Shown: in pieces, positions 23,169 to 64,000 of the stretch | Position numbering within the stretch: position 1 is the first letter of the stretch | Layout of the letters: the number at the start of each line of letters is the position of its first letter | NCBI RefSeq assembly: GCF_036588685.1 | Contig: NC_086383.1 | Span: forward strand, 27,404,001-27,468,000 | Length of the DNA stretch: 64,000 bases | From: Mytilus trossulus | Lineage: Eukaryota | Reading direction: 5' to 3' | The notes under the pieces: generated by a model | What the model saw: only the letters and a program-made list of their open reading frames with translations | What the model was told of the DNA's origin: nothing | Databases searched by the model: none | Made by a program: the position numbers and the translations under genes

Positions 23169-26100
23169 CTAATCTCCCCCACATCCTCCTCCGCATCCAC
23201 CGCCATCCCCTCCATAATCACCACCACCGCCATCATTTCCAGCATAACCACCATCTTCATTACCGGCGAAACCACCGCCGTCACCACCGCCGCCATAATC
23301 ACCAGTATAACCTCCACCATCCCCACCAGTAAAACTATCGTTGTAACCACCGCCATAGTCATCAGTGTAGCCCTCACCATCACCACCATAGTCATTAGTG
23401 TAGCCCTCACCATCACCACCATAAAAACCACCGTCGTCACCACCAAAATCACCATCTTCAAATTCACCAATATCACTGTCAGCATATCCATAATCCATGT
23501 TGTCACCGAAATCATAATCAGCGTAATTTATGTCCAAGGTGCCACCTTCATCCCAACCTCCCCAGTAACCACTGTAGGGATTTGGTCCCCATCCCCAACC
23601 CCAGTCCCAGCCCATACCTGGTCCAAAACCACCAAGGCCATATCCTATTGCAGCTCCAACTAGCATTCCTGAAAATGAAACACCATGCTATATTACTATA
23701 ACATGTAAAGAAGTGTAAAGAGAGAAAGCAACATTGTTACCTGGATTCTGATATACAGGAGCAAACCTTATTAGTTTTCGTAAAGGAGCTACATTATACA
23801 CTTTACTTGTATATAAGGGTATGGAAAAGAGTTTTTTTCAGTTTGTGAATTTTTTTTCTGGCCCGTTACTCTCTATTCTTAATTTGTTGTCTGTTATGTT
23901 ATGTTCTATTCTAAATCTTTTTCCAATATCCTTTACCGTTATACTTTATTCTTGATATTATATACCACACAATGACTCTCTATAGTGTCTTATTTTTAGT
24001 TAATTTTTCTCTATTGTTTTTCATTTGAGTAAAACGTTTTTACCTATTATTCTCCACTCAGTAAGCCCCATCCAGACCTTTCTTACGTAGTCGAGATGTC
24101 GAATGTAACGAGGCCCAATATTATTTAAGATTTGATATCCTTAATTTTTTTTAACTTGTGTTTAAAACATTCTTATTCTATTTAATTAATAAAAACTAAG
24201 TTAATCAGATTTAATATCATGCATTATTTTATGTGTACAAACTGTCACTACTCAGAATATGTTAATCTTTCTATATATAAATATAAACTGATCTTTATGA
24301 ATAATGCTTATGATCTTACACTAATATCAGAATATCATGCCAACATACCTGCCAAATGTTACTATTTTTGTGGGATTTCCCCCATGGAGGCTCCCAAATT
24401 GAAATTTTTAAAAGAGAAATTTTGACCACAGTTTTAAACAAAACAATTAATCTTACAATGGCTATTGGCTTGTAAAAGTATGAAGAAGTAAAGTAACAAC
24501 ATTATAATAAAATTGAAGGCACCACTTGATGGTTTTGTAGAATTATAAGAACCATCTTGTAGACAATGAGACTGTCATGAAAGTGAGAGGGTTAGCGCTA
24601 TAGAACCAGGTTTAATCCACCATTTTCTACATTTGAAAATGCCTGTACCAAGTCAGGAATATGACAGTTCTTGTCCATTCGTTTTTGATGCGTTTTGTTA
24701 TTTGATTTTGCCATGTGATTATGGACTTTCCGAATTGATTTTCCTCTAAGTTCAGTATTTTTGTGATTTTACTTTTTTTTGCACGTAAAACCCCATGGAC
24801 ATTTTGAAAAGTTGGCAGGTATGTGCCACCAATGTTATGTTACCTGTCGCCAAGTTTGAAGCACCACCACCGGATGTATTATGTGTGTGTACAATCAGAG
24901 GAGCGTTCTCATTTGGTGGATGGTCTGAAACAAAATATAGTGTTTTGGTGAACTTTGTGTATAAAACAAACAGTATCTTCAGAAAAAAAAGTGGCTACTG
25001 GCATCAGAAAGGTATTATTCATTTATTTATTTATTTATATAGATTAGACCGTTGGTTCTCCCGTGTGAATGGTTTTACACTAGCAATTGTGGCGCCCTTT
25101 ATAGCTTGTTGTTCGGTGTGAGTCAATGCTCCATGTTTAAGGCCGTACATTGACCTATAATGGTTTACTTTTTTTTAAAATTGTTATTTGGATGGAGAGT
25201 TGTCTCACTGGCACTTACACCACATCTTCCTATATATATTAAACAAATTACCATCGTATAAAAATCAGGGAAACGATTTTAAAATATCAAATTTCGCTGG
25301 AACGTTTTAATTTCGTTTTGAATTTTAGACATACTCTACGTTTAATACCATAGCTGCTTCTTCGATTGGCTGCAAACAATGAATGCTAGCTAGATTGATA
25401 CTGGTTGTTTGGTTATATAAAGCTCAAAAGTTATAAGTTGTTTGAATATTACGAAGCTTCCTCGGACGAAGAAGAGTTTGTTTAACTGTATTTGGTAAAA
25501 AGTTTAGGAAATTGTGGTCTTATGCTCTATAACTTCGTACTTTATTTGGACTTTTTAACTTTTTTTGATTCGAAAGTCACTGATGAATCTTTTGTAGACA
25601 TAACGTGAGTCTGGCGCAAATATTTAGTATTAATGATGAATTTATTTGACACAGTTTCCATTCTCAATTCTATATCTAGATGTACCTTCTATGGTTTGTA
25701 GTACTGACAGTTCGTGACATTGTAGGATGAAACTGGTACACTGGGTTGTACATTGTTGCTTGGAAGATAAGAACGAGCCGGTCTATGGGGAGGCGGAGGT
25801 AGCTACTATTGCTTGTCATACTTACAATTCGTGACATTGTAGGGTAGAACTGGTGCACTGGGTTGTACATTGTTGTTTGGAGGATAAGAACGAGCCGGTC
25901 TAGGGGGAGGCCGAGGTAGCTACTATTGCTTGTCATACTTACAATTCGTGACATTGTAGGGTAGAACTGGTGCACTGGGTTGTACATTGTTGTTTGGAGC
26001 ATAAGAACGGGCCGGTTTATGGGGAGGCGGAGGTAGCTACTATTGCTTGTCATACTTACAATTCGTGACATTGTAGGGTAGAACTGGTGCACTGGGTTGT

Positions 26101-29100
26101 ACATTGTTGTTTGGAGGATAAGAACGAGCCGGTCTATGGGGAGGCGGAGGTAGCTACTGTTGCTTGTCATACTTACAATTCGTGACATTGTAGAGGTAGA
26201 ACTGGTGCACTGGGTTGTACATTGTTGTTTGGAGGATAAGAACGAGCCGGTCTAGGGGGAGGCCGAGGTAGCTACTATTGCTTGTCATACTTACAATTCG
26301 TGACATTGTAGGGTAGAACTGGTGCACTGGGTTGTACATTGTTGTTTGGAGGATAAGAACGAGCCGGTCTAGGTGGAGGTGGAGGTAGCTACAGAGAAAA
26401 AAGTAGTAAATTAAACGTCATATACTTGTGCCTCTCACTCAAAGTGTCCAAATCCTTTTTGAATCGTTCCTGCAAGCTTTGTGTATGTCAGCTGTCGGTA
26501 CATTTTGTGGAGAACTTACATGTTTGACTGAAATTATGTGTGTGTTTTGAAAATAATTATACGACTGAAATAATTGTAAGACTTGATAAATGATTTTCGA
26601 TTACTTTTCGATTGAATTCGATACTGTATGTGAACAAGAAAAAACTCGGGTAATCATTTCATAAACAATAAACATAATATATGACTACAGCTTAATAAAT
26701 ATATGTGAATTTAAATAGCTATGAAAATCATGTGCAAAGCTTTGTCAAATTAAGACACGAGTGCACAGTATTGAAATATAAAAATATCTAAATAATAATT
26801 ATCACGTTCCCCCTCCCCCTCCCCTAAAAAAAATATGAGAAGAAAAACCCCCAACAACATACAAAATACGACATGCGACATTTATCATCTCATTCATGAA
26901 TTGTATGTTTATGTATATACTTAAAACTGCCGAGCAAATATATTTTTACTTACAGTTGCTTTAATAGCTTCCAACCAGGCTCTGTAAATAAATATGACGG
27001 TCAGAGACATGAGCAAATACTTGAATTTAACACATGCTTGGTCGATTGGTCGAGGGTGTTTGACGCCATTTGCATCACACTCGGCTACATTATAAACTAG
27101 TTGACTTTTTGAATCACAAATACACCAACGAAAACTTCAATTTTGATTTTCTAAAATTATTGCAGAAAGCCGATCGAACTCAGTCAAGCAAAGTTTCCAC
27201 TAATGGACATGTATAAAACTATATTTTTTCCCGTTTTCAAATCGACATGTAGGATTCCATGGAAATCAGCAAAGACTGAAATTATACTTTAGCAAAATTC
27301 TTATGAATTATCAAAATCAGAGAACCGCTTCTCATTATATAACGTTGAATTGCTTCAAACGTAGTATAAATAAAACGGTTTCGATTCATTCAAAACTTCA
27401 TATCTTTAAGCAAACAACTGTCTATAGTGGAATTCTGTAAGTTGTCCTATACATACATTTGTATTTTTTTTTATTACGGTAGAAAGTCTTCATTTGCATC
27501 TGAATGTTAATGAAAGTCAACATTCTAGATATTATATATCACAATATTTCTCCTTTGGCGGGGATCAGGGGCGGATTAAGAGGGGGATATGGTCCAGAGG
27601 GCCGCACCCCCTTTTCTGAGAAAAACATGATTGATTATATAGGGAATCATTGAAGCATGACCGGAGCGGGCCCCTTCTTAGGCAGTCAGCGGATCCCTTC
27701 TTAGGCAGTCAGCCCCCACCACTTATGAAAATTGCTGGATCCACCCCAGGGGATACGAGAAAGATGAAACTTCAAACTTTGACCTGAGTCATACACTCAC
27801 TTCATATCTTCATCGCCTCCATCAAATAAAATCCAGCTCATGTTAATGTTTTCTTTTCTGGTTCCCCTCTTGAATATATTTGGTATTCCCATCAGATGAA
27901 CTACCTGTCTGCCTTTCGGAAGTTTAGGAAATTTACTTGTATGAAGGCACATTGGGCCAACCGCCATAAAATTAGCAACCATCTAGAATGGAAAGAAATA
28001 GTTTGATTAATACATATATTCCCGAAATATTTTGAAAGTATTAGTACTTAATTTCAAAACATAAGAAATCTCAACAAAAGGTGCCTATTTCTAGTAATTC
28101 ATTATATGCCATAACATTCTGTTATTTTCACCAAATTTAAAAAAGAATGGACAATCAAATAACTAAAAGCGAAACATAACACATTTTGAACTTCTATTTG
28201 ACCATGGTTTTTAAATAAAAATGTGCCAACTTGTATGTACATGTTCAAAGAACAAATGTAGTCGTCTTGTAGGTTGCATCACTGTTCAGGGTTTAATTCG
28301 CCGTTTTAGAATCTAAAGAACTATATCGCATAGTTCGTATACCAAAATGAAAACAACGTTACTTCATTGGTTGGATTTCTATTGTTTATAACGTTTTAAA
28401 CCAATCACAACGTTTTGGTGTAAGCTTTTGGAAATATTACACAGGGTGCATAAGATTCTGAAACGGCGAATTATGTACCTGTCACGATGTTGTGACATCA
28501 ATATACATGAGACGTGGTTTAACATGACAAGACGCAAATTCACTTGAATGCATGCGAAACGTTGTCATGCAGTATCAATTAGAGATATAAACTACATTTT
28601 GTATATCAAATATTTTTTTTACCGAAAAGCAAGATTAAGCATTTGCCTGTTTCTAGATTTACCTTTAATTTGATGCCTCCTTTGTGGTGGTAACTATTTT
28701 GGTTTTCATACCATAATAAACTACTGTCCTCAAATAACACAAAGAACCGCGAGTTCCATCCGTCATATAGACACCCTCCTTTAAAATAGTGCAAAAAGGG
28801 ATTCAAAGCAATGACTATTATGAAATGATCTGAAATTTCGTCTATCCCGCTAACATGTTTAACCCCGCCACATTATTAAAATATGCACCTGTCCCAAGTC
28901 AGAAGCCTGTAATGCAGTGGTTGTCGTTGGTTTATGTGTTACATATTTGTTTTTCGTTCATTTTTTTCATATAAATAAGGCCGTTAGTGTTTTCGTTTGA
29001 ATTGTTTTACATTGTCTTATCAGAGTCTTTATAACTGACTATGCGGTCTGGGCTTTGCTCATTGTTGATAGCCGTACGGTGACCTATATATAGTTGTTAA

Positions 29101-33513: not shown

Positions 33514-33529
33514 TTTTAATTCTTATCAT
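33514..33529 (-). CDS. Tentative start-codon exon of PH paralogue A (MIRIK)
   Basis: ttctttgtcgtag|tccaaaaATGATAAGAATTAAAA|GTAAGT: acceptor, A-rich ATG context and a consensus phase-1 donor that matches the phase of exon 30746-30699. Confidence 0.45.
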
Positions 33530-35256
33530 TTTTGGACTACGACAAAGAAAACAATCCATTTGTATATGATTAGGAAATCCGTTGTGTTAAGTGACTGTCA
33601 AATTTTACATACAATATTGTAAATATTATAAACCGGAATTTATAAATAGAATTATTGTCGTAAAGTTAATATTTCAGCACACACATATATACATGTATGT
33701 GGTTTTTACCAAACGGATTCAACAAGCCCATGTTTCTCACCTGACTTATACTATATGATCATATGTTATTGACATCATCACTTATCCAACGAACACATCA
33801 CTGTTATATTTTGGTGTATAATTTTCTATTTTACCATTCAAAAACAATTTACAGTTAGTCAGTCAATGTATTACGAAAGATAACTCTTATTTGATCTTGA
33901 TAATATATTTAACCTCATTCACATTTTAGGCATAAATACCTGGACACATTTTTCAGGATCTAAGATTAATGTCTAACACTATTGAAGCAATATATCTACT
34001 GCCTATGCGTCAGCCTTTTGCCTAGAATTTAATCTTAATGCTTATTTCACTTATTAAAATTGAGAATGGAAATGGGGAATGTGTCAAAGAGATAACAACC
34101 CTACCATAGAACATACAACAGCCGAAGCCCACCAATGGGTTGTCAACGCAGCGAGAAACCTCCGCACCCAGAAGCGTCCTTCAGCTGGCCCCTTTGTATA
34201 CTAGTTCATTGATTGTGGACGTCATACTAAAATCCGAGTTATACACAAGAAATATGTCCAAATTAAAATTGTACATGTCTAACAAAGGTCAGAGGCCCGT
34301 GACTTGCCACTAACATATATATAAACATGCGAGAAACAAAATTATACAATGATTAAATGTTTAATTACATTTACTAGGAAGCATACACATAAACGTCATG
34401 CAGATAAATGTTACAGCTATATACATGTATCATCTCCATTGCACGGCCTTCGATGTATTCAGTCTAAGTTGTAATAGAAAATTAGAATTAAAACGAACAT
34501 TATAAAATAAAAAAAAAATGCAATTGTACCAGACTATTCATTCTATGTGTTTATAGAATATATAGATAAGTGAATTGTTTGATTCTTCTCCATTTTCAGA
34601 TGTTAAGGGAAAATAGAAAGATAAGAAAGAAATTTATATAAACCTTGTAACTCACATAACATGCCTCTGCTGGCGGACTGAAGTCATCGAAGGTATCACC
34701 AGCTCAATAGCCAGTTCCTATGTACTGACATGATTAAATCATGTAAATGTTATTCAAAATTACAAAATTTCGGTAATTATTTAAAATTCTGAAATGTGTA
34801 TCTCCCTCATTTAAAGCTATGATTCCTTGACCGACTTTGACTATAATTTGTTGTCCTTTTAGGTTTATCATTCGGCATCGTTTTAAAATTCACATTGCGA
34901 TAAGACGTATCACGGTACTTGTCTATCCCAAATTGATGTATTTGGTTTTGATGTTATATTTGTTATTCTCGTGGGATTTTGTCTGATGCTTGGTCCGTTT
35001 CTGTGTGTGTTACATTTCAGTGTTGTGTCGTTGTTCTCCTCTTATATCTAATGCGTTTCCCTCGGTTTTAGTTTTTTACCCCGATTTGTTTTTTGTCCAT
35101 GGATTTACAAACATCTTTGTATTTTCAAATAAAATGACTCGAACATCACTAAAACGGTTTAATTTATCGTTTACATTTTGAATGTGAAAAGAAATAATAC
35201 GTTTAAAAGCGATATTTGAATATAAATCTAACCCTGTCGTTCTATTTATGAATACA

Positions 35257-38387: not shown

Positions 38388-41300
38388 TTAACCTCCACAA
38401 CCTCCACAACCACCACAACCTCCACAACCACCACAATCTCCGCCGCATGCTCCACCATCCGCACCGTCATCACCAGGACGGCCGTCTCCATTGCCATTTT
38501 TACAGCAACCAGTTCCAAAGCAACCATGTTTACCGCAATCTTCTCCACAGCAACCAACTTCACAGCAACTCTCTTGACAACTATGATCACAACAGTATTC
38601 ATCGTCACAGCAATTATCATCACCACAGCCATCACTGGTACCGTTACTAAAGTTTCCTCTTTCAAAATCCCCAATATGATTTATATCATAGCCGTAATTG
38701 TTGTTTTTTTGACACAAATCGCCGACAATACTATCGATGTTTACACTCCCAAAGCCACTAACGTCATTCCAACTTCCCCAGTATCCACCGTAGGGATTTG
38801 GTCCCCATCCCCATCCCCAACTCCATCCAATACCTGGCCCATAACCATCAATACCACAACCTAGCGGTCCTCCAAGGATAACACCTAAAGAACATAATGA
38901 AACAGCATCATATGCAAAGGCTGTACACATGTAAGTACTTTATTTTGATAAAGTAGATATACTTCAGTTTCTATTGATGCATTAATTCAATAAATACCCG
39001 ATGTTTTGTGCATTGTGAGAGAATGACAATACCCTTGTCTTTCAATAGAAATTTCTTTCGAATCTTTCTGTTTTACCATCTGGTATTGATATTTATAGTT
39101 TTCAGCAACACTTTAACTAAATATACTCCTTTTGCAACTGATTTTTATAGTTCGTTTCTTATGCTGTACTGTTATACCACTGTCCCAGGTTAGGGGAAGG
39201 GTTGGGATCCCGCTTACATGTTTAACCCCGCCACATTATTGATGTATGTGCCTGTCCCAAGTCAGGAGCCTGTAATTCAGTGGTTGTCGTTTGTTTATGT
39301 GTTACATATTTGTTTTTCGCTCATTTAAAAAATAAATAAAAATAAGGCCGTTAGTTTTCTCGTTTGAATTGTTTTAAATTGTCTTATCGGGGCCTTTTAT
39401 AGCTATCTATGCGGTATGTGATTTGCTCATTGTTGAAGGACGTACGTTGACATATATATATATAGCTATAGTTGTTAATGTTTGTGTCAATTTGGTCTTT
39501 CGTGGATAGATGTCTCATTGGCAATCATACCACCTTATTCTTTTTTATATTCTTGGTGCCTTTCTGCACAACAAATCATTAGATATGTACCATATACTTT
39601 TATTGCTCAGAAACTCTTTCACTCACGCCTCAAAATACCTTGATATTGAACACGGCATGTGTATGGTACATAACATTTCTAGAGCAATACATCGTAATGG
39701 AAGTAACGAAGGTGTGAAATGTATTATGTTCTAGGATTTAAACATTAAAGTTTACCGGTTAGGATTACAATTTTTTTTTAATCGAAAAACAGTAAAACAT
39801 GCAAAATACAATACAAAGTCGAAGATCATTGAGGTATCAAAATTATAAAACAGATTAAAGTCATGAATAAAATGAACAAACCTTTTGTTTCTCTTTCAAT
39901 TATTATTTGCTATTGAAAAGACATCTCACATCATTTTATTTGTTACATATTGCCTTACCCCTTTGAATGCCTGAATATGTTCTTTCGTCTCTAGTGTTTA
40001 TATGTTGACATTCAGGTTGGTCTGAAATTAATATAAATAAATTTAAAACTGAAAAAAAAACGTTGTGTGCATTACAATTACTCCAATGGGAGAGCAAATA
40101 CATTGTCAAATTAACCTCAGTGTAAATATTTTATTGCATTTAGTTGAAGATCATTTCCGAGAACATTTACGTAAAATATTTACAGATTTAAAAAAAAAGT
40201 GTTTATGATATAGGATAATGTTCCATGCCTGCACCAATCGTTTAACGTAACTATCTGGAAAGTCAAGTGAAAGGTTAAATACGCTTTCAATACGTTTGTA
40301 ACCCGGATGTTTTTTTTGTTTTGCAGTCGATGTATGACTTTTGAACACCTATATTCAACTGTTGCATTTATTCAATACTGTGCAAACAATGTTGTATTGT
40401 AACAAGATGGCCGAAATGAATAAAAAATACACATTATGCATTTGTTGTATGGAAAAAGATAAACAATCGGAAATAGAAGTGTTTCTCATAAAAAATTAAA
40501 ACTCGAACTTCACAAAAAAAATCAGTAAGACAAAACAAAACGCACACACTTGGTCTGTAAATTGTAATAATACACATTACCTATGCTAACACAGTCAGAA
40601 TTAGAACAGAGAAGGGTAATGGGGAATTTAACCAGAAGATAAAAACCCGATCAAAGATCAGAAAACGGACAAATATTACAGATGGGTTTTGAAGAAGAGG
40701 CATTATACGAAGTAAAATGGTTTAACATGTATTTTTATTCCAAGGGCGGTAATTTCACCACAAGTCACATCAATCTGATAGTCAAAATCGACTAAATCGT
40801 TTGTCGTCATTATAAACATTTTAAAAGATAATGTCTGTAAGTCAATAGATGGTTTGCTATAAGAGAACGAATACATGCAGTCTCCTACTAACTTAGAATA
40901 TATTAGCTCCAACATGTTCATTGTGTACTTTTCATTGTCTTGTGGATGTGTCATGTAATTTTTCTATACATGATTTTTTTATAACGAGAACGGTCTTTCA
41001 ATTTTTTTAATACTTTTATTTTTAGTTCAATGTAACGTATTAGGTTATTCAGACTTACATCGTACTACATTAACTGTTGGGTATAAGTTAACCTGGTCAC
41101 CATTGCTTGATTAAGAAGCATTCGCTGGTGTAAACTGATTACCATTGCTTGAATGTTGAGCATTCTCTGGTATATCCTGCTTACAATTGCTTGAATAGTG
41201 AGTTTTCTCTGGTCTAACCTGCTTGCCATTGCTTGAATGGTGAGTATTCTCTGGTTCATCCTGCTTGCCATTGCTTAAATGGTGAGTATTCTCTGGTCTA

Positions 41301-44300
41301 TCCTGACTACCATTACTTAAATGGTGAGTATTCTCTGGTCTAACCTGCTTGCCATAGCTTGAATGGTGAGTATTCTCGGATCTATCCTGTTTGCCATTGC
41401 TTGAATGGTGAGTATTCTCTGGTCTATTCTGCTTGCCATTGCTTGTATGGTGAATATTCTCTGGTCTTGAAGGAGGAGAAGGCAGCTACAACAATTCAAG
41501 TTCAAATTTCATGGTGAAAGGGCAACTTTCATACTACATATCATATGAAAAAACTCATCATAGATGTATTTCCTCTAATGTGACGAAACTTAAATTAAAT
41601 GTGAACAAAACAAGAAAAACGTCAACAGTTACTTTACTACATATTTTTTTTAGACCGCTCATTTTGTCATCTTATCATAAAAAGATTTAATCATCTCAAT
41701 TAGTCAATAATAAAACTTATATTATAAAAAGATTAATTTTGAAAAGATATAAAGTAAAAGTTAAGTGCTAGTGGCACAGCCATTCGCTGCACATTTCAAA
41801 TGGGCTTGTTATTGTACCTACCGTTGGTTTAATAGCCTCAAGCCATGCTCTGAAAAATATAATGAATAAACATAAATAGTATATAATGCTGTGCAATATA
41901 GTACCTGTTTATAATGCAATACTCCAAAAACTAGTCGACTCCTTTCAAGTGTCCGAAACCTGTCACAAATATCCACACGTGCCCGATTCCATTCCACAAA
42001 ACGTGTCCAATTTCACTTCCCCAAAATATGTCCGTTTTTTTCTGCTAAAACTGTTCGAGTTGCACCTTTCTCAAACGTGCCAAATTTAAAACAGGTGTAT
42101 GTCTCAAAATGCTATGTGTTGATATATCTTTTTGACGTCAATTAGATCATAAGGGAATCAATTGGGAACATCACAATTTTGTCGATGCATAAAAAGGGAG
42201 ATTCAGTGTTTGCTTTATAATATAAATAAAAAATTGTAAAATAAAAAATAAAAAATATACACTGTTAGAAATTATTTTAAATTACGGAATATATAGCACT
42301 CATGCAATGTTTCTGGTAATACTATTTTGTTCTTTTTAGTCAATAAATTTCAAATAAGTTAGCTCGAATAGCACTGAAGAGACATGTCAAAATGCGCATA
42401 TTCAGCATAAACATTGATATCATTAATTTCCACGTAAATCACGTAGTACTACATAAATGCATTTTGGTGTTAATCTAATATAATAAAGTTTCTCTAGTAA
42501 ACATTTTTAGTTATAAACTAATATTTGTAGTCATAGTGACAGATAGTTCGAGGATGTCTTCTAACACAGATTTTAAGAGGGTTTACAACTGATCCCAACT
42601 GTATGATAAGTGTTGTAATTACATACTGCATGTCCCCTTCATACGTTGGGAATAAAATCCAGTTCATTTTAAGGTTTCTTCTTTTAGTTCCCTTTTTGAA
42701 GATATCAGGAACACCCATCAAATGTATGACATGTCTGCCTTTTGGAAGCTTTGTGAAACCAACTGTATGAAGACACATTGGTCCAACTGCAATGAAATTT
42801 GCTACCATCTGAAAAAAATGTCATATAGTCAAATAGTTTTTTTTAAGAAATCCCCCAAAATACCGATTTTAAAAAATAATTCAAAAATTAATGATTCATC
42901 ATCGCAGTTATAGGGAAACCTCACTCAGACATATTTATCGGATATCAGATGCGATTTGGTATTATCACGATATTCTCGAGTTCCATTCTAATTTTTTGAC
43001 TTGCTACAAATGTAGAAAGAGATTATAAATTCTCAGTAGAAGGGCGATACCGCTAATGATAGGCTGTCAGTCTTGGATAGTAATAGTATATTAACCTTAC
43101 TTGAAAGAAATCAATTTGTTATATTTTAAATAATAATTTGTAAAAAAATATGATTTTAAATTTATACGTACATATATTTAGATTTTAGAAACCTGTTGAT
43201 CAGTGTTTTTCGTTTGTCGATGTGGTTCATAAATGATAATAAAATAGTAAAATTTTACATATTAGGACTTCGATGGAGAGTTGTCGCATTGGCTTTCTTA
43301 CCACATCTTCTTATAACTAACTAAAATTTATCCCTTTTGTTGATTCTCTACAAAAGTGTCTTTTCAGAATCTAAATTGATGAGTTTAAATAAGTTTTACA
43401 ATTGTGTGATAAGTTTGAATACATATACACAACTGTATGTGGTGCTCCATAATTGGAAAAAAAATATATTCATACAATAGTACATTAGTATGAGAAGATT
43501 ACCTTAAGCCTTATACCACCCTTGTGGTGCCCATCGTCGTTTCCATGGTACCATAAAAGACTGCTGTCGGCATACAGTTTAAAATAACGGTCTTTCCATC
43601 CGTTGACGAAAAATCCTCCTGTATAATACCAAAACATATATAATAGACGAGCGTCTACAGTAACGAATTGAAAATGCTTTCTTTAATATGTCTACGCCAT
43701 GTTTTTAATATATTGTGAAACAACCTTTGCATATGAAATTTTGATATGCAAAGGTTGTATCCCAATATATATTTCGTCAGTTACTGAACTTGTAATTATT
43801 ATTGAAGATGCATAAAACAAAATAAAAAAGCATTACATTTTGTGTTCATTTCAATAATTCGAAATATATTATGTATATGTTTGCTTTTTTGGTTATGCTT
43901 TTCTAATTATTTAACCCTCTTACAGTAAAGAATTAAAAAAGGGATCGCTCGAAGTGACGCTGTTAAAATGATGAGATGCATAAATAGAGATTTAAGAAAT
44001 ACCCTATATGACTCAAGAACATGGGATGAACAAATTATAGGGGGGTTGATTTCAGATGCTGCGAGAAGGTTAACAGATAAACAACATCATAATAATTTAA
44101 ATAACAATATCTGAAATTAAAGTGAAAAACAAATGTCAGGACACAGGATAAACAAGAAGTTATTCGGTAGATTTTAAACAGACAATCATGCACAAGATCG
44201 TCCCAAAACAACACCGGAACCTTAATTTTTTTTATACAAGAACCAATTTAAAACAAAACTATGATCCATCGCAGTTACTTTGAAAGTGTATAATTGAGTC

Positions 44301-45991
44301 AAATTTATTGATATTAATTAAAATGTATGTACATGGATGTAAAAGTGGAGCAAACACTACTGACCTTTTCGATGAGCTCATCCCTATTTTTTTGTGAGGT
44401 TTTGTGTTAAATGTTTTGTTTCTTTGTACTGGTTAGATTAATTGATTTGAGCGTCACTGACGAGTCTTTAGTTGCCAAAACGTAAATCTGGATCTCATCT
44501 AAGACTTATATCTATGATGAGTTTATTATGAACTTAAACTTGTAATGTTGTCCCTTTTGGTAAAATGTGTTTTAATTGCTCCTTGGTTTCATCTTACTAT
44601 TTTGTTATCGTCATGTATCGGTTAAATTCATAGTTTACAGTTACGTTTTTAGACTGCTGGTGGAATTTTCGTCCCCGAGGGCATCACCAGCCCAGTAGTC
44701 AACACTTCGGAGTTGACATGAATATCAATAATGGGTCAATTTCCTGTTTACAAAACTTTGTATTTTTCAAAACAATGAGGATTTTCTTATCCCAGGCATA
44801 GATTACCTTAGATGTATTTGACACAACATTTTGGAATTTTGGATCCTCAATGCTCTTCAACTTTGTACTGGTTTGGCTTTATAAATATTTTGATATGAGC
44901 TTCCCTGATATTTCTTATGTATACGAAACGCGCGTCTGGCGTACTAAATTATAATCCTGGTACCTTTGATAATTATTTACAACACTGAGTCCATGCCACT
45001 GCTGGTGGACGTGTCTTCCTCGAGGGCATCACCAGCCCAGTATTCAACACTTCGGTGGTGACATGAATATCAATAACGTGGTAATTTTTATAAATTTCCT
45101 GTTTACAAAACTTTGTTTTATTAAAAAAACTAAGGATTTTCTTATCCCAGGCATAGATTACCTTTAATGTATTTGGCACAACTTTTTGCAATTTTGGATC
45201 CTCAATGTTCTTCAACTTAGTAATTGTTTGGCTTTATGAATATTTTGAAATGAGCGTCACTGATGAGTCTTTTGTAGACTAAACTCATCATAGATACCAG
45301 GACTAATTTTTATCAATACGCCAGACGCGCGTTTCGTCTGCAAAAGACTCATCAGTGACGGTCGAATCTAAAAAAGTTATAAAAAGCCAAATGAAGTACG
45401 AAGTTGAAGTGCATTGAGATCCAAAATTCCAAAAATTGTCCAAACGCGCGTCTGGCATTATAAATTATAATCCTGGTACCTTTGATAACTATTTGATCTA
45501 CTTAAAATTAAGCCAAATAAATGAGGTTAAATGTTCGACCAATTATTTTCTCAGTATGACTTGATTTGCGTGTCAATTGACAAGTGTTTATTTAATTCAC
45601 TAGACATTAATCTCCAAGGAAATAAGTATAGTGTTTTGAAGACTCATATTATCCTTAATGTACTATATTTTTCAAAGCCTTTATGTTACCAGGTGAATGA
45701 CCTATATTTTTTGTTCAACATATCTACTTTCAGGAAAGAAATTTTTTTTTGAGGTATATGACGTCATTATGCAGTGTTTTTATGTCACTTCACGTGTACA
45801 CTTGTTGATTTTCTCAATTCTAACTAATTTTCGAACAGTCGAGGACAGTTAAAATGAAAGCCCTTTGTATGATATTTAGTCAGAATATGAAAATTCAATG
45901 ACAATGTTTAACGGTTTGTAAATGTTCTTCTTATCTAACATACGTTCATAAATAGTAAGGTAACCAGTCTTCACTACTCGACTTGTTGGCT
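38388..45991 (-). CDS. PH-domain protein, PLEKHB/evectin-like, paralogue B (spliced), with His/Asn-rich 14-aa repeats and a Cys-rich acidic tail; in-frame TAA if the distal exon-5 donor is used
   Basis: Exons 45991-45944 (PTSRVVKTGYLTIYE), 43618-43503 (RGFFVNGWKDRYFKLYADSSLLWYHG...GGIRLK), 42808-42627, 41849-41822 (QAWLEAIKPT), 41485 to 41185/41143/41059 (LPSPPS + repeats), 40021-39959, 38884-38388 (GVILGGPLG...WSWGWGWGPNPY...CC-rich...CGG*). The first four exons are 48/116/182/28 nt with the same phases as paralogue A. A possible start exon is 46084-46075 (ATG ATA GGT G|GTAAAT), uncertain. Confidence 0.82.
39138..39550 (+). repeat. Dispersed repeat family (AAATAAGGCCGTTAGTTTTCTCGTTTGAATTG...GGCAATCATACCACATCTT)
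   Basis: Copies at 28830-29163, 7017-7250, 20420-20520, 25040-25240, 13090-13265 and 1288-1650 (opposite strand). Confidence 0.75.
41090..41467 (-). repeat. 42-bp coding tandem repeat x9 (RPENTHHSSNGKQD) in exon 5 of paralogue B
   Basis: Nine in-frame 14-codon units; unit 9 carries TAA at 41113-41111. Confidence 0.92.
44650..45492 (+). mobile_element. Head-to-tail dimer of the ~355-nt retrozyme-like repeat with an antisense copy inserted at 45280-45441
   Basis: Hammerhead core positions at 44905 and 45260 (period 355). Both monomers end in CCTGGTACCTTTGATAA. Confidence 0.8.
45319..45360 (-). ncRNA. Minimal type I hammerhead ribozyme with intact core, second repeat subfamily
   Basis: Minus strand: CGUCA-CUGAUGA-GUCU uuugc AGAC-GAAA-CGCGCG-UC^UGGCG, followed by the subfamily-B 3' end ...CCTGGTATCTATGATGAGTTTA. 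Confidence 0.85.
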
Positions 45992-48900
45992 CTATAATAA
46001 AAAAAAACATATATATAGTATAATATAGGTTACATGTAGCAATTTGAGATTCTTATTTAATTTGTACCATTTACCACCTATCATTACTTTTCCTTGAATA
46101 ATATTGAACGAACGCAAAATAGAATTTGAACATGCTCTATAGTGAAGCAGGTACCTTTCTGTGCGACATGAACTCACCCGCGGTTTTGGACGGGTTATTT
46201 TGATTAGTGTGGTGTTGGCTATGTTGTGTTTAGGAAACGTTTGTTTTTTCATTTTGTCGTCGTGTTTCGTGTTACCATGACGTTGTCAGTTTGCCTTAAA
46301 ATCACGTCAGTGTTCTCTTTTGAGTGTTTTTCTTCAGCAACATATAATATATTCGTTCCTATAAAGTAATTTGTATCAGCAAAATTGCACCAACTATTTT
46401 ACTTAATCTTATAATTAGTGAAGATATGTGAAATGTAGAGCAGGCTTTTTTATAAACCATCTTAACTCAACACTATGATGTACATTTATAACCTTTTGGT
46501 CCTTTAAGGGGTTCGCGGGTCTAAATCGTTTTTTTTCTTAGTATAGGATTTCGCTATATTTTTCTATAAATGAACTTTATCTTATACTTGTGTTTGAAAT
46601 TTTTATACCCTGGAGTCTCCTTTATGTTGTTTTATGTTACCCACATGTACATTTGCCTGTTCATAAGTTATGTGCATACAAATGTATAAAGCATCTAAAA
46701 TATAGCGACACATAGAAGTAACAGGATGATATTTCCAACAGATTTTTTGGTCACCGATCCTCAACGATAAAGCAAAAACACTATATATCATTTCGTGTTT
46801 TGTGTTTAAGGTTTAAAATCCTAACATAAATCGTCGTTTATCAAATTCATTTTTTCAATACATAAGTATTAGAATATCTTGTAAATATTAAAGAAAAGAC
46901 AAACAAATACCAACCGAGAACCACCCACATAACTGAGGCACAGTACTTATTTAATTAGCAACTAAATATGAATAGAGTTTAAATGTCACATAAATCATAA
47001 AACGCTAATGTACCATAAAATGATGAGTAGATTGTTTTCGAATATATATTCTTAAATATATAATAAAAGTATAATAAATATTTAATAAAAGTATTTGTAT
47101 ACTCAAAATGCCGCTTCCGGGTGCGGTATACTCTTGCTGTGTTCAATACCGATTGATGGCTTTTGACTTGTCATTTTACTCTAATGATGGGTTATTGTCT
47201 CTTTGAGTCATTAGCCATTTTCATTATCTATTTTATCTGATATTTGTCCAACTTTTTGTATCAGACATCTAATAGTTTATATGAAATTCCCTTTAATTCG
47301 TATAGGATCTGGATCACAACACTCCATGGTTTGTGTATAGATTCAAGTGTAGTAAACGATCGTTAAATATAAATTGTAAACAACTATTGTAGGAAGAATA
47401 CTTAAAATAAAATGCGTATCAAATAAAGGGCACTAGTACTTAAACACCCGAAATGAGATACGACCACGTGTTCGTTGAAAATGTTATAACAAAAGAATTG
47501 GAACTCCTATGGGAATTTAAAAAAATCCATAAAAACTGTCAAAATTAATCATTTTCAACAAAACGAGTTAACAATAACTGATAAAAGTCTGATTAGATAC
47601 AGCCTTTTTTCCAATGAAAATGAAACTATATAAAAAAAATATTGAAATAAGATAGCAGAAAAAAGTATGAATGTATTAAATAACACGATATGAATTTTAC
47701 ATGGTCCAGTAGAGATAGGGAATACTATCCAATAGAGGAAGTATACATTTTAAAGTAAGCAATGATATTGACGTACATTTAAAATATAGTGCGTATTAAA
47801 AAAACATAAGTATTTCCAAACAGACGATTCAATTAAAATCTATATTTCAAAATATCAAAATACCTGGTGGAGTAAAAAATACTATCTAATTTCAAAAGTG
47901 TATACACTTACTAAAAAATATATAGTAAACAACAATATGGACGTAAATTTAATTTAAACATAGTTAAAGGAAAATGCGTATCAATTAAGACACAAATATT
48001 TCTATATCAAGTATGATAATGGCATATTAGTAAAAATAGGTATTTCAAATATTGAAGTTGGATAATAAAACCAAAATAATGAAAAGATAACAAATAATAT
48101 AACAAAATTGTTACATGAATGAGTAGATATCTGGAAATTGAATTCAAAAAAATACTACACGTTAACTTATCAACATAATAGGATTTGAACATGCATGGGT
48201 TGAGATTGGGAACACTATCGAAAATAAGAACGTGTATAAATCATAATAAACAACAACCATCATGCTCTTCAACTCCATGCCTTATTTGGCCTTTTTAACT
48301 TTTTTTTATTCGAGCGTCAGTGATTTGTTCTTTGTAGACGAAACGCATGTTAGCGATAATACAAAATTTCAATTCAGGTATCTTGGATTAGTTTATTTAG
48401 TACATTTCAAATAAAGTGCGTATCAAATAAGACACAAGTATTCAAACACATATATTAAAAAGATGACGCGTTAGTTAAAAAAACATATTTCAAAATATTA
48501 AAAATAGATGATAAAAATAAAATATTGAAAATTAACTGATCAAAATGAATGAATTTTATACGAAGTGTATAAATCATAAAAAAAACAGCAATCACCATGC
48601 TCCATTCTTTATTTGGCCTTTTTAACTTTTTTTTTATTCGAGCGTCATGTCACTGATTTGTTATTTTGTAAATCAAAAGAAAAGAATGATAAATTAATTA
48701 CTTAATCTGAAATAATTGTAACATGGTGAAAACTATCGATTATAAGGAGTGTACACCATTATAATAAAAGACAATCATGAATAACATTACAAATGAAGTT
48801 CGTATAAAAAAAAAAATGTATTTGAAGACAAAATATGATACTATGGTGTATTATCAAAAAAAATATCAACATATTTTTAAAATAAAAAGAAACAATATTC

Positions 48901-50843: not shown

Positions 50844-53800
50844 ATGTTGAAGTTACAAGTATCTATATATAGTATCTGCATGGTGTTGACTCTGATACTG
50901 CATGATGAAGTGAAAGCTGAATCATGCACTACGCTAAGTAAGTTTTCATATTTACAGCAAAATCGAGCAATCTTATCCATTTATCTTGAAAATGTTAATT
51001 TTGATTTTATTAAAAGTAGAACTAGTTACCGTTTAAATAAAATCGACAATATGCACACCTTAAACATGTTATAGTGAAAGTCACGCGGAACATAAATAAC
51101 AAAAATACACGTGCATTTATTATCTAACAATGAAAAAACAAATAATGACTTTTATTACAATTTTAGAAAATGTTGCATACAAAATTCAGGATACCAATCT
51201 CTATTTTTGCAGTAAAAATAAAATCACAAAAATTTCCGAATTTACAGCATTTGGTCCGAGTACACAGTTATCGTCCTTTGATTTTCGTTGTCCACGAATA
51301 TAGTCCTTAGTGTGGACAGTCTGTGACTTGTCAATTTTTGTTATACCCCTTCCAAATTTATTTCTTCATGTTTTATGCCTCATATAGCAAGTTGGGGGAT
51401 GAAATGACACTGTAAAAAAATTTGGGTCATAAATATTTAAGTAAAGTAGTGATTAGGTCCAGCTGAAAAAGGTAAAAAATTAGCACTTCGGAAGCTGTCA
51501 AAAGATTTCAAGACCCCCTTAACATAAAATTGTCCATATTTTGAGTTAGAGCTGATGAAGTTTTCTATACTTTTGATATAATTTGTCCCAAAAGTAGTAC
51601 AACACACTGTAAGAATATTATTTAGAAAGCGCAGGTGGGATTTTTTTTATTTTCATTTATTGTCTAAAAGAAATGCACTACGAAATAACTGTGTACTCGG
51701 ACCTAAGAGGTGAAATCAGGAAATATAGAATTTGTACTTTGGAAACTTCCCTGAATGATTTGATGGTGTCACTTTGTCAAATAGCATAACACTAAAGGAT
51801 TTTTACTTTTATTTGATAGAATTTCTGCAAAAATTACCATTTTTGGCATTATATGGTCAAAATAAGCATTTCATAGCTTTTTCAATTTTGATGCATAAGT
51901 GGCATTCCGACTTTCTATCTGACATGTTTTCATGTGTCAATTTTTGTGTTTCTGTGCTTTAATCCAGTTGAATTACTCATTTGTGAACCCTGAATCTACA
52001 GAAAAGAAGATTATCTCAGACAATATGAGCAAAAAGTGTTGTATAAATGACCCTCGTCTAACGCCCTGTTTGGATCAAGTTAAATGTGAGGAGCATGGCA
52101 CATAAAAGTTGGAAGTCCATAATAAAGACTTACTAAATTTTTATAAAAAACACTAAACAATGTCTTTTGTACCTATTACATTTCACATAATATCTTTCTT
52201 TACTTCTGTAGGATACCATGTGGTTCACATATAAGCCTGTTGAGACTAAAATTGCATGCAAGTTTTTCACTAAAAAGTGAAAAATCTTTGTATCAGACCA
52301 TATTGTCTGCTAAAAAAGTTGAATGTAAAAGCCTTTTTGTGCTCAGATTTATTGTATCATGTCACATGAGTATAGAGATGATAGAAAAGACACAAATTTT
52401 TATTTCCTATAGCTTCAATGTGCATTTTTAAATGTAAATATGTGCGACGGCCTAAATTGACCCTAAATTATTTTTAGTCTTATTTGACCTAAGACCCATT
52501 TAAACTAATATGATATGTTATTTGTAAGTTTTCTTTCCATTTAAAGTACATTAAATACATATGTAAGGATTATTTATAATCAAAAAGCTTCACAAATTTA
52601 AAATTGCTGGAAAATATTACATCTTCATATAAGGCCCCCCTTCATTGGAAAACCTGCATTTTTAGGCACAGGCTCATATAAATTTGACTTTTGAAAAATT
52701 ATGCTAAGTCTGATATATCAAATGAGTACTCTATTGCTTTAAATACATGATATTTTGTATATTAAGGCATTTTAAAAGTATTGTTTTGCAATATTTTAAT
52801 TTTAAAAGCCCCAAATGTTGTTAGTTGAAATTTATCAATTTTAACATCAAAATTTAACACGCAAAGTTGAATATAGAATTAATCATAGTATCTATAATAT
52901 ATATCCAATTGTTATCAAACTTTGTTAGCAGTTTTATAATATATTAAGCTTTTGTCATACCAAGTTTTATTAAGATTTGGCAACTTTTTCTATCCTATTA
53001 GGTCCGAGTACACAGTTATCGTCCTTTGATTTTCGTTGTCCACCAATATAGTCCTTAGTGTGTACAGTGTGTTACTTGTCAAGTTTTGTTATACCCCTTC
53101 CAAATTTATTTCTTCATGTTTTATGCCTCATATAGCAAGTTTGGGGATGAAATGACACTGTAAAAAAATTTGGGACATAAATATTTAAGTAAAGTAGTGA
53201 TTAGGTCCAGCTGAAAAAGGTAAAAAATTCGGAAGCTGTCAAAAGATTTCAAGACCCCCTTAACATAAAATTGTCCATATTTTGAGTCAGAGCTGATGAA
53301 GTTTTCTATAATTTTGATATAATTTGTCCCAAAAGTAGTACAACACACTGTAAAAATATTATTGAGAAAGCGCAGGTGGGATTTTTTTTATTTTCATTTA
53401 TTGTCTAAAAGAAATGCACTACGAAATAACTGTGTACTCGGACCATTTTTGTTAATAGCATTATTATCGAAAATTCTTCTTTATAAATTTAAAAAAAATG
53501 AAAAACAAAATCCATTTAGCAGGTTTGAGCAAAGATGGATTTCGATAGTCTTTTGAGATAGTCTTTTAGTCATTAAATTGTTTTTGAAGTTTTAAAATAA
53601 CACCCTTTGCTGACATTGTTTGTGTATGATCGTGCTTGATTAAGATACATCGATGAGCTAGGTGAAATATAAACAGACACATTTCATTGTGCGGCCGTTA
53701 GTAATAAGCATATGACTATATTGATGTCCGAAATTTTTTGTGATAAGTTAAATTGAGAAGAACTTGACACAGCATGACCCCAAGAAACTGATACGCAAAT

Positions 53801-63014: not shown

Positions 63015-64000
63015 ATGAATCCATGTGTATTTACTTTTTATTTTCCACTGCTGATGTTTATACTGCAATTGACAGGTAAGTTCAGAGTTTTGTTTTTAAT
63101 ACGGTTAGTTTAGAAATTATTTCGAGGTATTTATAACTGCAAAAATTGAGATTGGGTCAGTAGCGCTTTAATAAGCAATCACATTTTGAAAATGTTCATA
63201 TACATTTCTAATAATGATTATTCCTCTTTAGCTTTTGTGCATACTTCAAACATTGCAAGACTTGGTGTGATACATAATCTATTTTTTTCCTACATTTACA
63301 GCACAGATACTCTGAAACCAAGAGGATTAAAATGGTCGTTTATATATTATAATATCAGAAAGAAAAATATTCAATTAGTTTATTATGTCAGTAGATCCGC
63401 ATTAGGGCCATTTTAACTTCGTTTTTTTTAAGGAAAAGTCAATCTGGTTAATTAAGTTGGGGAATTATCTTTTTTTTAGGGGGGAGGGGGTATTCCTAGT
63501 CGGAATGAGACAATTATTTGTTTACTAGGCATGCGAAAATCTGATGGGTAGATAGCTGATATTTACTCTTTAAATTAATATAAATAGATTGAACGTTAAC
63601 GTATGCCAACACAATGTCAGCTTGGGAAAAAGGTCAGATTACTTAGTATTAATAAAATGTTATTTAATATGTTATTATATGTTTACTTTCTCGAAAGTAG
63701 GACCAATCTTAGTATATTTTCATGCAGTTCAATACTACTTTTAGATTCATTAAGATGGACAGTAGAACACAAAGTAACTGACTATGGACAAAACTTAATA
63801 TTGTTATGTAGAGTGTCGAACTGTTGTATGAAAGATGCAGGATGGTATTTATGGACTCCTACAAAACGCACAATTCTTAAAGACGTAAAAACTGCTAGTA
63901 TATCAGTCCCAAAGAAGTATTCGGGATATATTCGAACAGATGGTTTTAGTCTTATTATCAATAATCTTACACGAGCTGATATGAACGTTAGTTACTCTTG
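63015..64000 (+). CDS. Immunoglobulin-like domain protein, 5' part (signal-peptide exon plus Ig exon running off the window)
   Basis: Exon 63015-63075: MNPCVFTFYFPLLMFILQLT, donor G|GTAAGT. Exon from 63745: DSLRWTVEHKVTDYGQNLILLCRVSNCCMKDAGWYLW...KKYSGYIRTDGFSLIINNLTRADMNVSYS(C). It has the B-strand Cys, the C-strand Trp, an LxIxNL E strand and a DxxxxYxC F strand. Confidence 0.85.

What the first reader, a model, noticed from the sequence alone, without database searches (positions are those of the whole stretch)
25686..26391. A whole exon plus its 5' splice site amplified six times, each copy sealed by in-frame stops
Seen: the 117-bp unit is the 94-nt coding exon (LPPPPPRPARSYPPNNNVQPSAPVLPYNVTN) plus the 23 nt GTAAGTATGACAAGCAATAGTAG. 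Only the first copy has a polypyrimidine acceptor. Five copies carry the same AATT|GTAAGT donor and the last has AACT|GTCAGT. Reading through the first donor gives CKYDKQ-TAG-TAG, so any more distal donor yields a premature stop that removes the hydrophobic C-terminal part. The last copy ends TAGAAGGTACATC, close to the acceptor/exon start TAGTAGCTACCTC, a plausible microhomology seed. Inference: repeat copy number could set the ratio of full-length mRNA to NMD-targeted or PH-only transcript, making the array a VNTR-tuned splicing dial.
Basis: partly seen in the sequence, partly recalled or inferred. Interest (0 to 1): 0.75.

Follow-up and report, generated by a model that had tools for sequence, protein, structure and literature searches.

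The report
Whole-exon splice-donor minisatellite in mussels
In a mussel gene, one small exon and the splice signal behind it are repeated six times in a row, but the RNA assemblies examined join the exon once to its neighbours, so the extra copies are likely harmless intron filler of a kind already known from human and lancelet genes.

Summary
The array is real: six units of 117-118 bp, each the 94-nt exon E of a Mytilus PH-domain gene plus 23 intron bases. The unit junction is present in 4 of 4 DNA runs from four labelled organisms, and depth suggests roughly 3 to 30 units. So it is a shared, length-variable minisatellite, not an assembly artefact.

The splicing-dial idea is not supported. 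Contigs of 3 of 4 RNA-type runs show the exon E-F joint. In the two runs where depth can be accounted for, none is left on the 23-nt spacer that any distal-donor mRNA must contain. Full-length orthologues carry the acceptor-linked first copy once. Inner copies have poor acceptors and drift like unselected DNA. The stops are ordinary: 48 of 144 donor-like sites have one as near.

Against my reading: the RefSeq model identical to this gene ends in the read-through peptide, the RNA donors' array genotypes are unknown, and NMD was not blocked.

It matches human F7/LMNB2/CBS boundary minisatellites and lancelet 'mirages'. The scan has noted many such arrays in this genome. What differs here is that the unit holds the whole exon, and the window's coding copy shares derived changes with inner units.

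The parts
25686..26388 (-). Tandem array, six units of exon E plus 23 intron bases
26295..26388 (-). Copy 1 = coding exon E (94 nt, proline-rich linker behind the PH domain)
   Evidence: open frame; orthologues carry it once
26389..26410 (-). Genuine acceptor of exon E, with pyrimidine tract
   Evidence: 14 of 17 pyrimidines; seen as the flank of one first-copy contig in 4 of 4 DNA runs (loose ends at 25806)
26272..26294 (-). Donor 1 (GTAAGT) and 23-nt spacer; TAG-TAG at 26277-26272, the second TAG likely being the copied acceptor's own TAG
   Evidence: origin of the second TAG is inferred
26154..26271 (-). Copy 2, 118 nt, one-base insertion; donor at 26176
26037..26153 (-). Copy 3; donor at 26059
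25920..26036 (-). Copy 4; donor at 25942
25803..25919 (-). Copy 5; donor at 25825
25686..25802 (-). Copy 6, diverged terminal copy (13-17 differences from the others), weakened donor GTCAGT at 25708
   Evidence: the terminal copy keeps GTAAGT in one X9 contig (record 18)
25679..25688 (-). Intron stretch with 7 of 10 match to the acceptor/exon start; possible seed of the first duplication
   Evidence: weak
33514..33559 (-). First coding exon of the host gene
   Evidence: tblastn, 15 of 15 residues identical to P0013 and P0001
30699..30746 (-). Exon A (PH domain)
28663..28778 (-). Exon B (PH domain)
27801..27982 (-). Exon C (PH domain)
26954..26981 (-). Exon D (28 nt), upstream partner of exon E
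   Evidence: exon D letters as loose end at the unit start in X15
24844..24924 (-). Exon F (81 nt), downstream partner of exon E
   Evidence: E-F joint listed for X6, X7, X11
23169..23668 (-). Exon G: hydrophobic Gly stretch, Trp-Gly motif, Gly/Asp tail, stop
   Evidence: F-G joint in 4 of 4 RNA-type runs

Best explanation
This is a length-variable minisatellite whose unit is a whole 94-nt exon plus its splice donor; splicing likely uses the first copy almost alone, so that copies 2-6 are likely removed with the intron as unselected decoys. Shown: the unit, the shared array in four labelled organisms, the poor inner acceptors, and one exon E per spliced contig. Inferred origin: a mispairing between the acceptor/exon start and a weakly similar stretch about 20-30 bases into the intron duplicated the exon with its donor but without its pyrimidine tract; unequal crossing-over then changed the copy number and homogenised the inner units while the end copies lagged. 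Inferred splicing: exon definition from the only good acceptor picks the nearest downstream donor (94-nt exon rather than 212-680 nt), as in human F7. The 23-nt spacer is too short to be an intron (recalled size limit). Rare leaks to a distal donor would carry a premature stop and would probably be degraded; that is a by-product, not a dial.
For: RNA (4 of the 24 listed runs laid): E-F joint with the ATT-type exon end listed in 3 of 4 runs, F-G joint in 4 of 4, exon D letters directly at the unit start in X15. Bin arithmetic: in X7 the top bin (6940 letter-depth) is filled by one contig over the 71 exon bases (6944); in X6 it (100634) is below the exon-only maximum (102176); so no depth remains for the spacer. 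X7 record 26 is 1148 nt, against 1147 expected for exons A-G with exon E once. DNA (4 other runs): spacer-unit junction in 4 of 4, a 'goes back 117' joint in X9, summed unit depth over first-copy depth about 3 (X1, X2), 7-12 (X9) and 31 (X8) (rough). In X2, X8 and X9 the acceptor-linked copy translates (15 of its 17 differences shown) to exactly residues 141-171 of the full-length M. edulis and M. galloprovincialis proteins P0001, P0010, P0012, P0014, while inner units differ. Inner acceptors score below all 14 real ones and at the 46th-55th percentile of all AGs. Inner copies show 5 synonymous to 9 non-synonymous changes plus a frameshift in the window, and 3 to 20 in X8/X9, against 31% synonymous expected without selection. 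Precedent: PMC1557585, PMC3087553.
Against: RefSeq model XP_063407191.1 (P0013), identical to the window over the 162 residues compared, ends at CKYDKQ, i.e. reads through donor 1; I could not see its read support. The RNA runs are assembled contigs, which drop rare forms; they come from animals of unknown array genotype whose alleles differ from the window by 19-21 of 597 bases in exon G; tables were cut (87 joints, 486 letter rows, 1559 loose ends not shown); X15 and X11 depth could not be accounted for. In the window's allele donors 3 and 5 share 77-79 upstream bases with donor 1, so the joint alone does not name the donor. Human CBS and 6-16 do use two downstream pseudo-sites. The selection test is weak because exon E is loosely constrained even as coding sequence.
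Confidence: 0.75

Rival explanations
1. VNTR-tuned splicing dial: identical downstream donors compete with donor 1, more copies send more transcript to a PH-only or NMD-degraded form, and copy number sets gene output.
For: Five identical donors, all distal ones truncating; copy number varies widely; RefSeq model P0013 has the truncated end and keeps the PH domain; CBS and 6-16 use two pseudo-sites.
Against: No spacer depth in X6 and X7. Full-length orthologues match the first copy of array-bearing runs. An in-frame stop within 8 codons follows 48 of 144 donor-like sites, and the gene's other introns stop after 1-30 codons. P0013 may be a mapping artefact: short reads fit donors 1, 3 and 5 equally (artefact inferred). 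F7 constructs with one to six repeats spliced alike.
Confidence: 0.1
2. Nascent cluster of mutually exclusive exons: each inner copy is flanked by AG and GT, the spacer is too short to splice, so exon D could join one inner copy in frame and give variant linkers.
For: Every inner copy has AG before and GT after it; D-copy-F is in frame for copies 3-6; joining two copies shifts the frame.
Against: Inner acceptors have 5 of 17 pyrimidines and three upstream AGs, against 9-14 of 17 and none in 14 real acceptors. Inner copies drift as unselected. None of the 7 members of the orthologue cluster shows an inner-copy peptide.
Confidence: 0.04
3. Neutral for splicing but active in evolution: inner units have overwritten most of the coding copy in the window's lineage by unequal crossing-over or gene conversion. 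Compatible with the best explanation.
For: Window copy 1 is identical to copies 3 and 5 from unit position 18 on. Its Ser at exon codon 11 is the majority state of units in X8 (89% of summed depth) and X9 (72%) and is in X2's inner unit, whereas the first copies of those runs and the proteins of M. californianus and M. coruscus have Pro.
Against: Direction is not fixed: the array may have re-grown from the coding copy in this lineage and spread by hybridisation. One window allele only; haplotypes read from depth-matched table rows.
Confidence: 0.4
4. Assembly artefact: the array, or its count of six, is mis-assembled.
For: X1, which may be the window's source, shows 3.0-3.1 times single-copy depth where six copies predict 4.15, and 1.2-1.3 where they predict 2.0; no contig with the private letters of copies 2 or 4 among its 5 laid records. 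The 352-bp higher-order period would let an assembler add a block.
Against: Junction present in 4 of 4 DNA runs from four studies and a 239-nt contig holding two units in a row. A 6/3 heterozygote would give 3.1 and 1.5, near what X1 shows, and contig assembly removes small variants. At most the exact count is in doubt.
Confidence: 0.02

Closest known systems
Human exon-intron boundary minisatellites: F7 IVS7 (37 bp, 5-9 units), LMNB2 (100 bp, 10-15), PDGF intron 4 (81 bp, 16-18), CBS IVS13 (15-20), 6-16 (25 pseudo-sites). PMC1557585: abstract, Introduction and 12 passages read; PMC6627357 and PMC2630376: passages. The primary LMNB2, PDGF, CBS and 6-16 papers were not seen.
   Same: First unit spans the exon end and donor; identical donors repeat into the intron; variable copy number; the most upstream donor is the one seen in RNA.
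   Different: Here the unit starts at the acceptor AG and holds the entire exon (F7's holds 4 exon bases); the array is shared by four labelled organisms; invertebrate.
Amphioxus 'mirage' minisatellites (Adh3, globins BflGb6 and BflGb9, troponin C, PGBD5). PMC3087553 and PMC3902484: passages read.
   Same: Boundary-spanning units of similar size (108-160 bp), 3 versus 6 units between haplotypes, homogenised inner units with diverged end units, normal splicing reported.
   Different: The passages describe one boundary per unit; this unit carries the AG, the whole exon and the donor, but not the pyrimidine tract.
Schistosoma mansoni SmPoMuc exon-2 genomic repeats. PMC2576457: passages read.
   Same: A whole coding exon repeated in tandem up to about 20 times, with concerted evolution.
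   Different: SmPoMuc units are about 1 kb with both flanking introns, and the repeats appear in transcripts; here the spacer is 23 nt and the copies are not seen in spliced contigs.
Host protein: PH-domain protein resembling PLEKHB/evectin
   Same: Pfam PH at residues 21-138; ESM Atlas top three clusters named PLEKHB1, scores 0.88-0.90; proline-rich linker then a hydrophobic Gly stretch.
   Different: Atlas hits share only 160-163 of 256 features, so this is a lead; no solved structure under E 0.1; long Gly/Asp tail; sequence relatives found only in Mytilus and one ribbon-worm protein.

Membership tests
Exon-intron boundary minisatellite (F7 type / mirage) | Head-to-tail repeat whose first unit spans a real exon-intron boundary | tested here: met
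   exon E confirmed by RNA joints and orthologues
Exon-intron boundary minisatellite (F7 type / mirage) | The splice signal is reiterated in the intron | tested here: met
   four further identical donors and one weakened donor
Exon-intron boundary minisatellite (F7 type / mirage) | Copy number varies between chromosomes or individuals | tested here: met
   depth ratios about 3, 3, 7-12 and 31 in four DNA runs; rough, summed contig depth is not a copy count; variation within one species not shown directly
Exon-intron boundary minisatellite (F7 type / mirage) | Concerted evolution inside, diverged end units | tested here: met
   copies 1-5 differ by 2-7, copy 6 by 13-17; first copy distinct from inner units in X2, X8, X9
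Exon-intron boundary minisatellite (F7 type / mirage) | The authentic first site is used mainly or only | tested here: inconclusive
   favoured; no raw reads, no genotype-matched RNA, and RefSeq model P0013 reads through
Splicing-regulating VNTR (dial) | Isoform ratio or expression follows repeat number | not testable with these tools
   only contigs were served
Splicing-regulating VNTR (dial) | Distal-donor transcripts detectable | tested here: not met
   no spacer depth in X6 and X7; contigs show presence, not absence, and NMD was not blocked
Mutually exclusive exon cluster | Each copy has a usable acceptor | tested here: not met
   inner acceptors score -6.7 to -8.0, below all 14 real ones (-4.0 to 7.8, leave-one-out)
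Mutually exclusive exon cluster | Copies keep frame and protein sequence under selection | tested here: not met
   frameshift in copy 2; 5:9 and 3:20 synonymous to non-synonymous; weak test
PLEKHB/evectin family (host protein) | Orthology by sequence or tree | tested here: inconclusive
   feature-based lead only; no named PLEKHB among 8 hits; no tree built

The most novel reading that the evidence does not exclude
The array is a trans-species, whole-exon VNTR that does real work: longer alleles divert a measurable share of transcripts to a PH-only or NMD-degraded form (the form that the RefSeq model shows), and the silent intronic exon copies also feed new residues back into the coding exon, as the shared Ser at exon codon 11 suggests.
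Probability: 0.1. Interest if true: 0.62.

Novelty: new member of a known kind. Interest (0 to 1): 0.24.

Why it matters
As it most likely stands it is an ordinary example of a known repeat type, and the scan has noted many in this genome. Three things give it modest value. First, it is a clean natural test of first-donor choice in a mollusc: alleles seem to run from about 3 to about 30 units, and in the M. edulis/galloprovincialis-type allele the first copy has private bases 24-35 nt before the donor, so ordinary short reads can tell donor 1 from the rest. Second, it is a likely source of annotation error: the public model for this locus is truncated while orthologues are full length. Third, it may show an intronic exon array overwriting its own coding exon. 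If the dial were true it would be an invertebrate case of repeat length tuning a gene through NMD.

Tried and rejected
No whole genome is held for the window, so the frequency of such arrays could not be counted by me. 23-nt spacer as a micro-intron: rejected, since removing it shifts the frame (94 = 3n+1) and meets a stop in copy 2. Skipping exon E: no open frame. Special design in the stops: rejected. RNA structure hiding the later donors: two units fold no better than shuffles, z -0.54. Intronic poly(A) signal at 25646 giving the PH-only form: AATAAA occurs once per 587 bases here, and X6 and X7 leave only 127 and 160 letter-depth unexplained in that bin; lack of cover proves nothing. My early idea that the paralogue's 42-nt repeat is also a duplicated donor: rejected, the conserved donor lies behind the repeat and relatives translate the repeats. 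A search for proteins with variant or truncated exon E among 97-310 residue proteins found none among 1 candidate; uninformative. PDB sequence search gave only two PH domains at E 0.11-0.21. PMC10078293 passages added nothing. Literature searches listed no paper on this gene or array; the library lacks most subscription journals and no supplements were opened.
Full report
Observation. The repeat is as described. TRF gives period 117, 5.9 copies, score 1240 at 25702-26392, and a second period of 352. On the minus strand there are six units from 26388 to 25686; copy 2 has one extra base. Copies 1-5 differ from each other at 2-7 places, copy 6 at 13-17. The unit is found nowhere else in the window.

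Host gene. Exons at 33559-33514, 30746-30699, 28778-28663, 27982-27801, 26981-26954 (D), 26388-26295 (E, copy 1), 24924-24844 (F) and 23668-23169 (G). A to G form one open frame when donor 1 is used; all five distal donors give a stop after CKYDKQ, and skipping E has no open frame. Protein searches place the gene in a small Mytilus family with a Pfam PH domain; likeness to PLEKHB/evectin is a lead only. Of the 7 members of the orthologue cluster, 5 are full length with exon E once (P0001, P0010, P0011, P0012, P0014), one is a 61-residue fragment, and one, the M. trossulus RefSeq model P0013, ends at CKYDKQ. P0013 is identical to the window over the 162 residues compared.

Is the array real and variable? 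Four DNA-type runs from four labelled organisms were laid on copy 6 and its flanks. All four have contigs that run from spacer into unit start, all four have one acceptor-flanked first copy, and X9 has a 239-nt contig that goes back 117. Summed unit depth over first-copy depth is about 3 (X1, X2), 7-12 (X9) and 31 (X8), taking the lowest position for X8 and X9. The tool warns that such depth is no copy number, so these are rough. X1 may be the window's source. It shows 3.0-3.1 where six copies predict 4.15, and 1.2-1.3 where they predict 2.0. That fits a 6/3 heterozygote or an assembly that is 1-3 units too long. One X9 contig ends the array with an intact GTAAGT donor before the same intron tail, so the weakened last donor is not shared by all alleles.

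Which donor is used? Four RNA-type runs were laid on exons F, G and copy 6. The F-G joint appears in 4 of 4. The E-F joint is listed in 3 of 4, with the exon end of copies 1-5 and not of copy 6; X15's contig reaches only about 20 bases into E. X15 shows exon D letters directly at the unit start. Any mRNA that uses a distal donor from the real acceptor must contain the 23-nt spacer. In X7 the top bin is filled by one contig over the exon bases (6940 observed, 6944 expected), and that contig is 1148 nt against 1147 for exons A-G with E once; in X6 the bin (100634) is below the exon-only maximum (102176). X11 and X15 have overlapping contigs and could not be accounted for. Independently, the acceptor-linked copy in X2, X8 and X9 translates to exactly the exon E peptide of the four M. 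edulis and M. galloprovincialis proteins, while their inner units differ; those proteins are annotations, and their read support was not seen. Limits: contigs drop rare forms, NMD was not blocked, the RNA donors' genotypes are unknown, their alleles differ from the window by about 3% in exon G, and the tables were cut.

The result against my reading is P0013. It may reflect a real PH-only transcript. It may also be an artefact, because donors 3 and 5 share 77-79 upstream bases with donor 1, so short junction reads fit all three. I could not decide this.

Are the stops or the inner copies special? No sign of it. An in-frame stop within 8 codons follows 48 of 144 donor-like sites in the window, and the gene's other five tested introns stop after 4, 18, 1, 10 and 30 codons, against 6 here. 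The second TAG is likely the copied acceptor's own TAG, in frame because the unit is 39 codons (inference). Inner acceptors have 5 of 17 pyrimidines and three upstream AGs, and score below all 14 real acceptors of the two paralogues. Changes in inner copies are 5 synonymous to 9 non-synonymous plus a frameshift in the window, and 3 to 20 in X8/X9 (letters private to the first copy left out), against 31% synonymous expected without selection. The test is weak because this linker also changes fast as coding sequence. The microhomology is 7 of 10, reached by about 8% of random 50-nt stretches: possible, not shown.

Mechanism. Most likely a single duplication captured the acceptor AG, the exon and 23 intron bases but not the pyrimidine tract; unequal crossing-over then expanded and homogenised the units (inferred). 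The spliceosome defines a 94-nt exon from the one good acceptor to the first donor; distal donors would need exons of 212-680 nt. Leaks would carry a stop far upstream of two junctions and would probably be degraded (established knowledge of NMD, not tested in mussel).

A side result. The window's coding copy is identical to inner copies 3 and 5 from unit position 18 on. Its Ser at exon codon 11 is the majority state of units in X8 and X9 (89% and 72% of summed depth), whereas the first copies of X2, X8 and X9 and the M. californianus and M. coruscus proteins have Pro. The simplest reading is that array sequence overwrote the coding exon in this lineage, but re-growth of the array followed by hybridisation is not excluded.

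Known kinds. PMC1557585 (abstract, Introduction, passages) describes minisatellites whose first unit spans an exon-intron boundary: F7, LMNB2 (100-bp unit) and PDGF use only the first donor; CBS and 6-16 use two more. PMC3087553 and PMC3902484 (passages) describe lancelet 'mirages' with units up to 160 bp, 3 versus 6 copies, homogenised inner units, diverged ends and normal splicing. PMC2576457 (passages) describes whole-exon repeats that are functional, but with full flanking introns. The minimum intron size and the steric rule for mutually exclusive exons are recalled; one search was seen as a listing only. The scan's own unchecked notes list at least eight other donor arrays in this genome and eight more findings elsewhere; none lay near or resembled this one. 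They gave me the 'mirage' lead and are not counted as support.

Verdict. New member of a known kind; the whole-exon unit and the sharing across organisms are the only distinguishing points. Interest 0.24.

Noticed in passing
window 38388-47327, minus strand: Tandem paralogue with the same exon layout. Its exon E holds an in-frame 42-nt coding repeat (41120-41467, 8.3 copies) whose number differs among relatives (P0008 none; P0006, P0026, P0009, P0027 increasing).
   Followed up: partly
window 41113-41111 and 41184, minus strand: The paralogue has a TAA where relatives have Glu, upstream of the conserved donor at 41058. A donor-like site at 41184 inside the repeat has the same phase and lies before the stop, so it could rescue the frame; untested.
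   Followed up: partly
protein P0013 (XP_063407191.1, LOC134690945): The public model of this locus is truncated at the read-through peptide while five orthologues are full length; possible annotation artefact caused by the array.
   Followed up: partly
protein P0002 (M. coruscus): After exon E the model continues into a different 17-residue repeat instead of exon F; perhaps another repeat in this intron or a mis-annotation.
   Followed up: no
window 21001-21933 and 21929-22861: Tandem duplication of about 930 bp, 94% identical, covering the likely 3' end of the host gene.
   Followed up: no
window 23348-23423: 33-nt coding duplication in exon G, absent from the M. edulis and M. galloprovincialis proteins; X6 holds contigs of both types, so that run is mixed for this allele.
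   Followed up: partly
window 56157-56561, plus strand: C1q domain exon (Pfam PF00386, E 2e-18).
   Followed up: partly
window 63600-63998, plus strand: 133-codon open stretch that looked Ig-like by eye; no Pfam match at E 0.01.
   Followed up: partly
window 24544-24780, 25050-25300, 25516-25623: Fragments of high-copy dispersed repeats in the introns, with very high summed depth in RNA-type runs.
   Followed up: no
window 51249-51703 and 52997-53444: 455-bp direct repeat, 96% identical.
   Followed up: no
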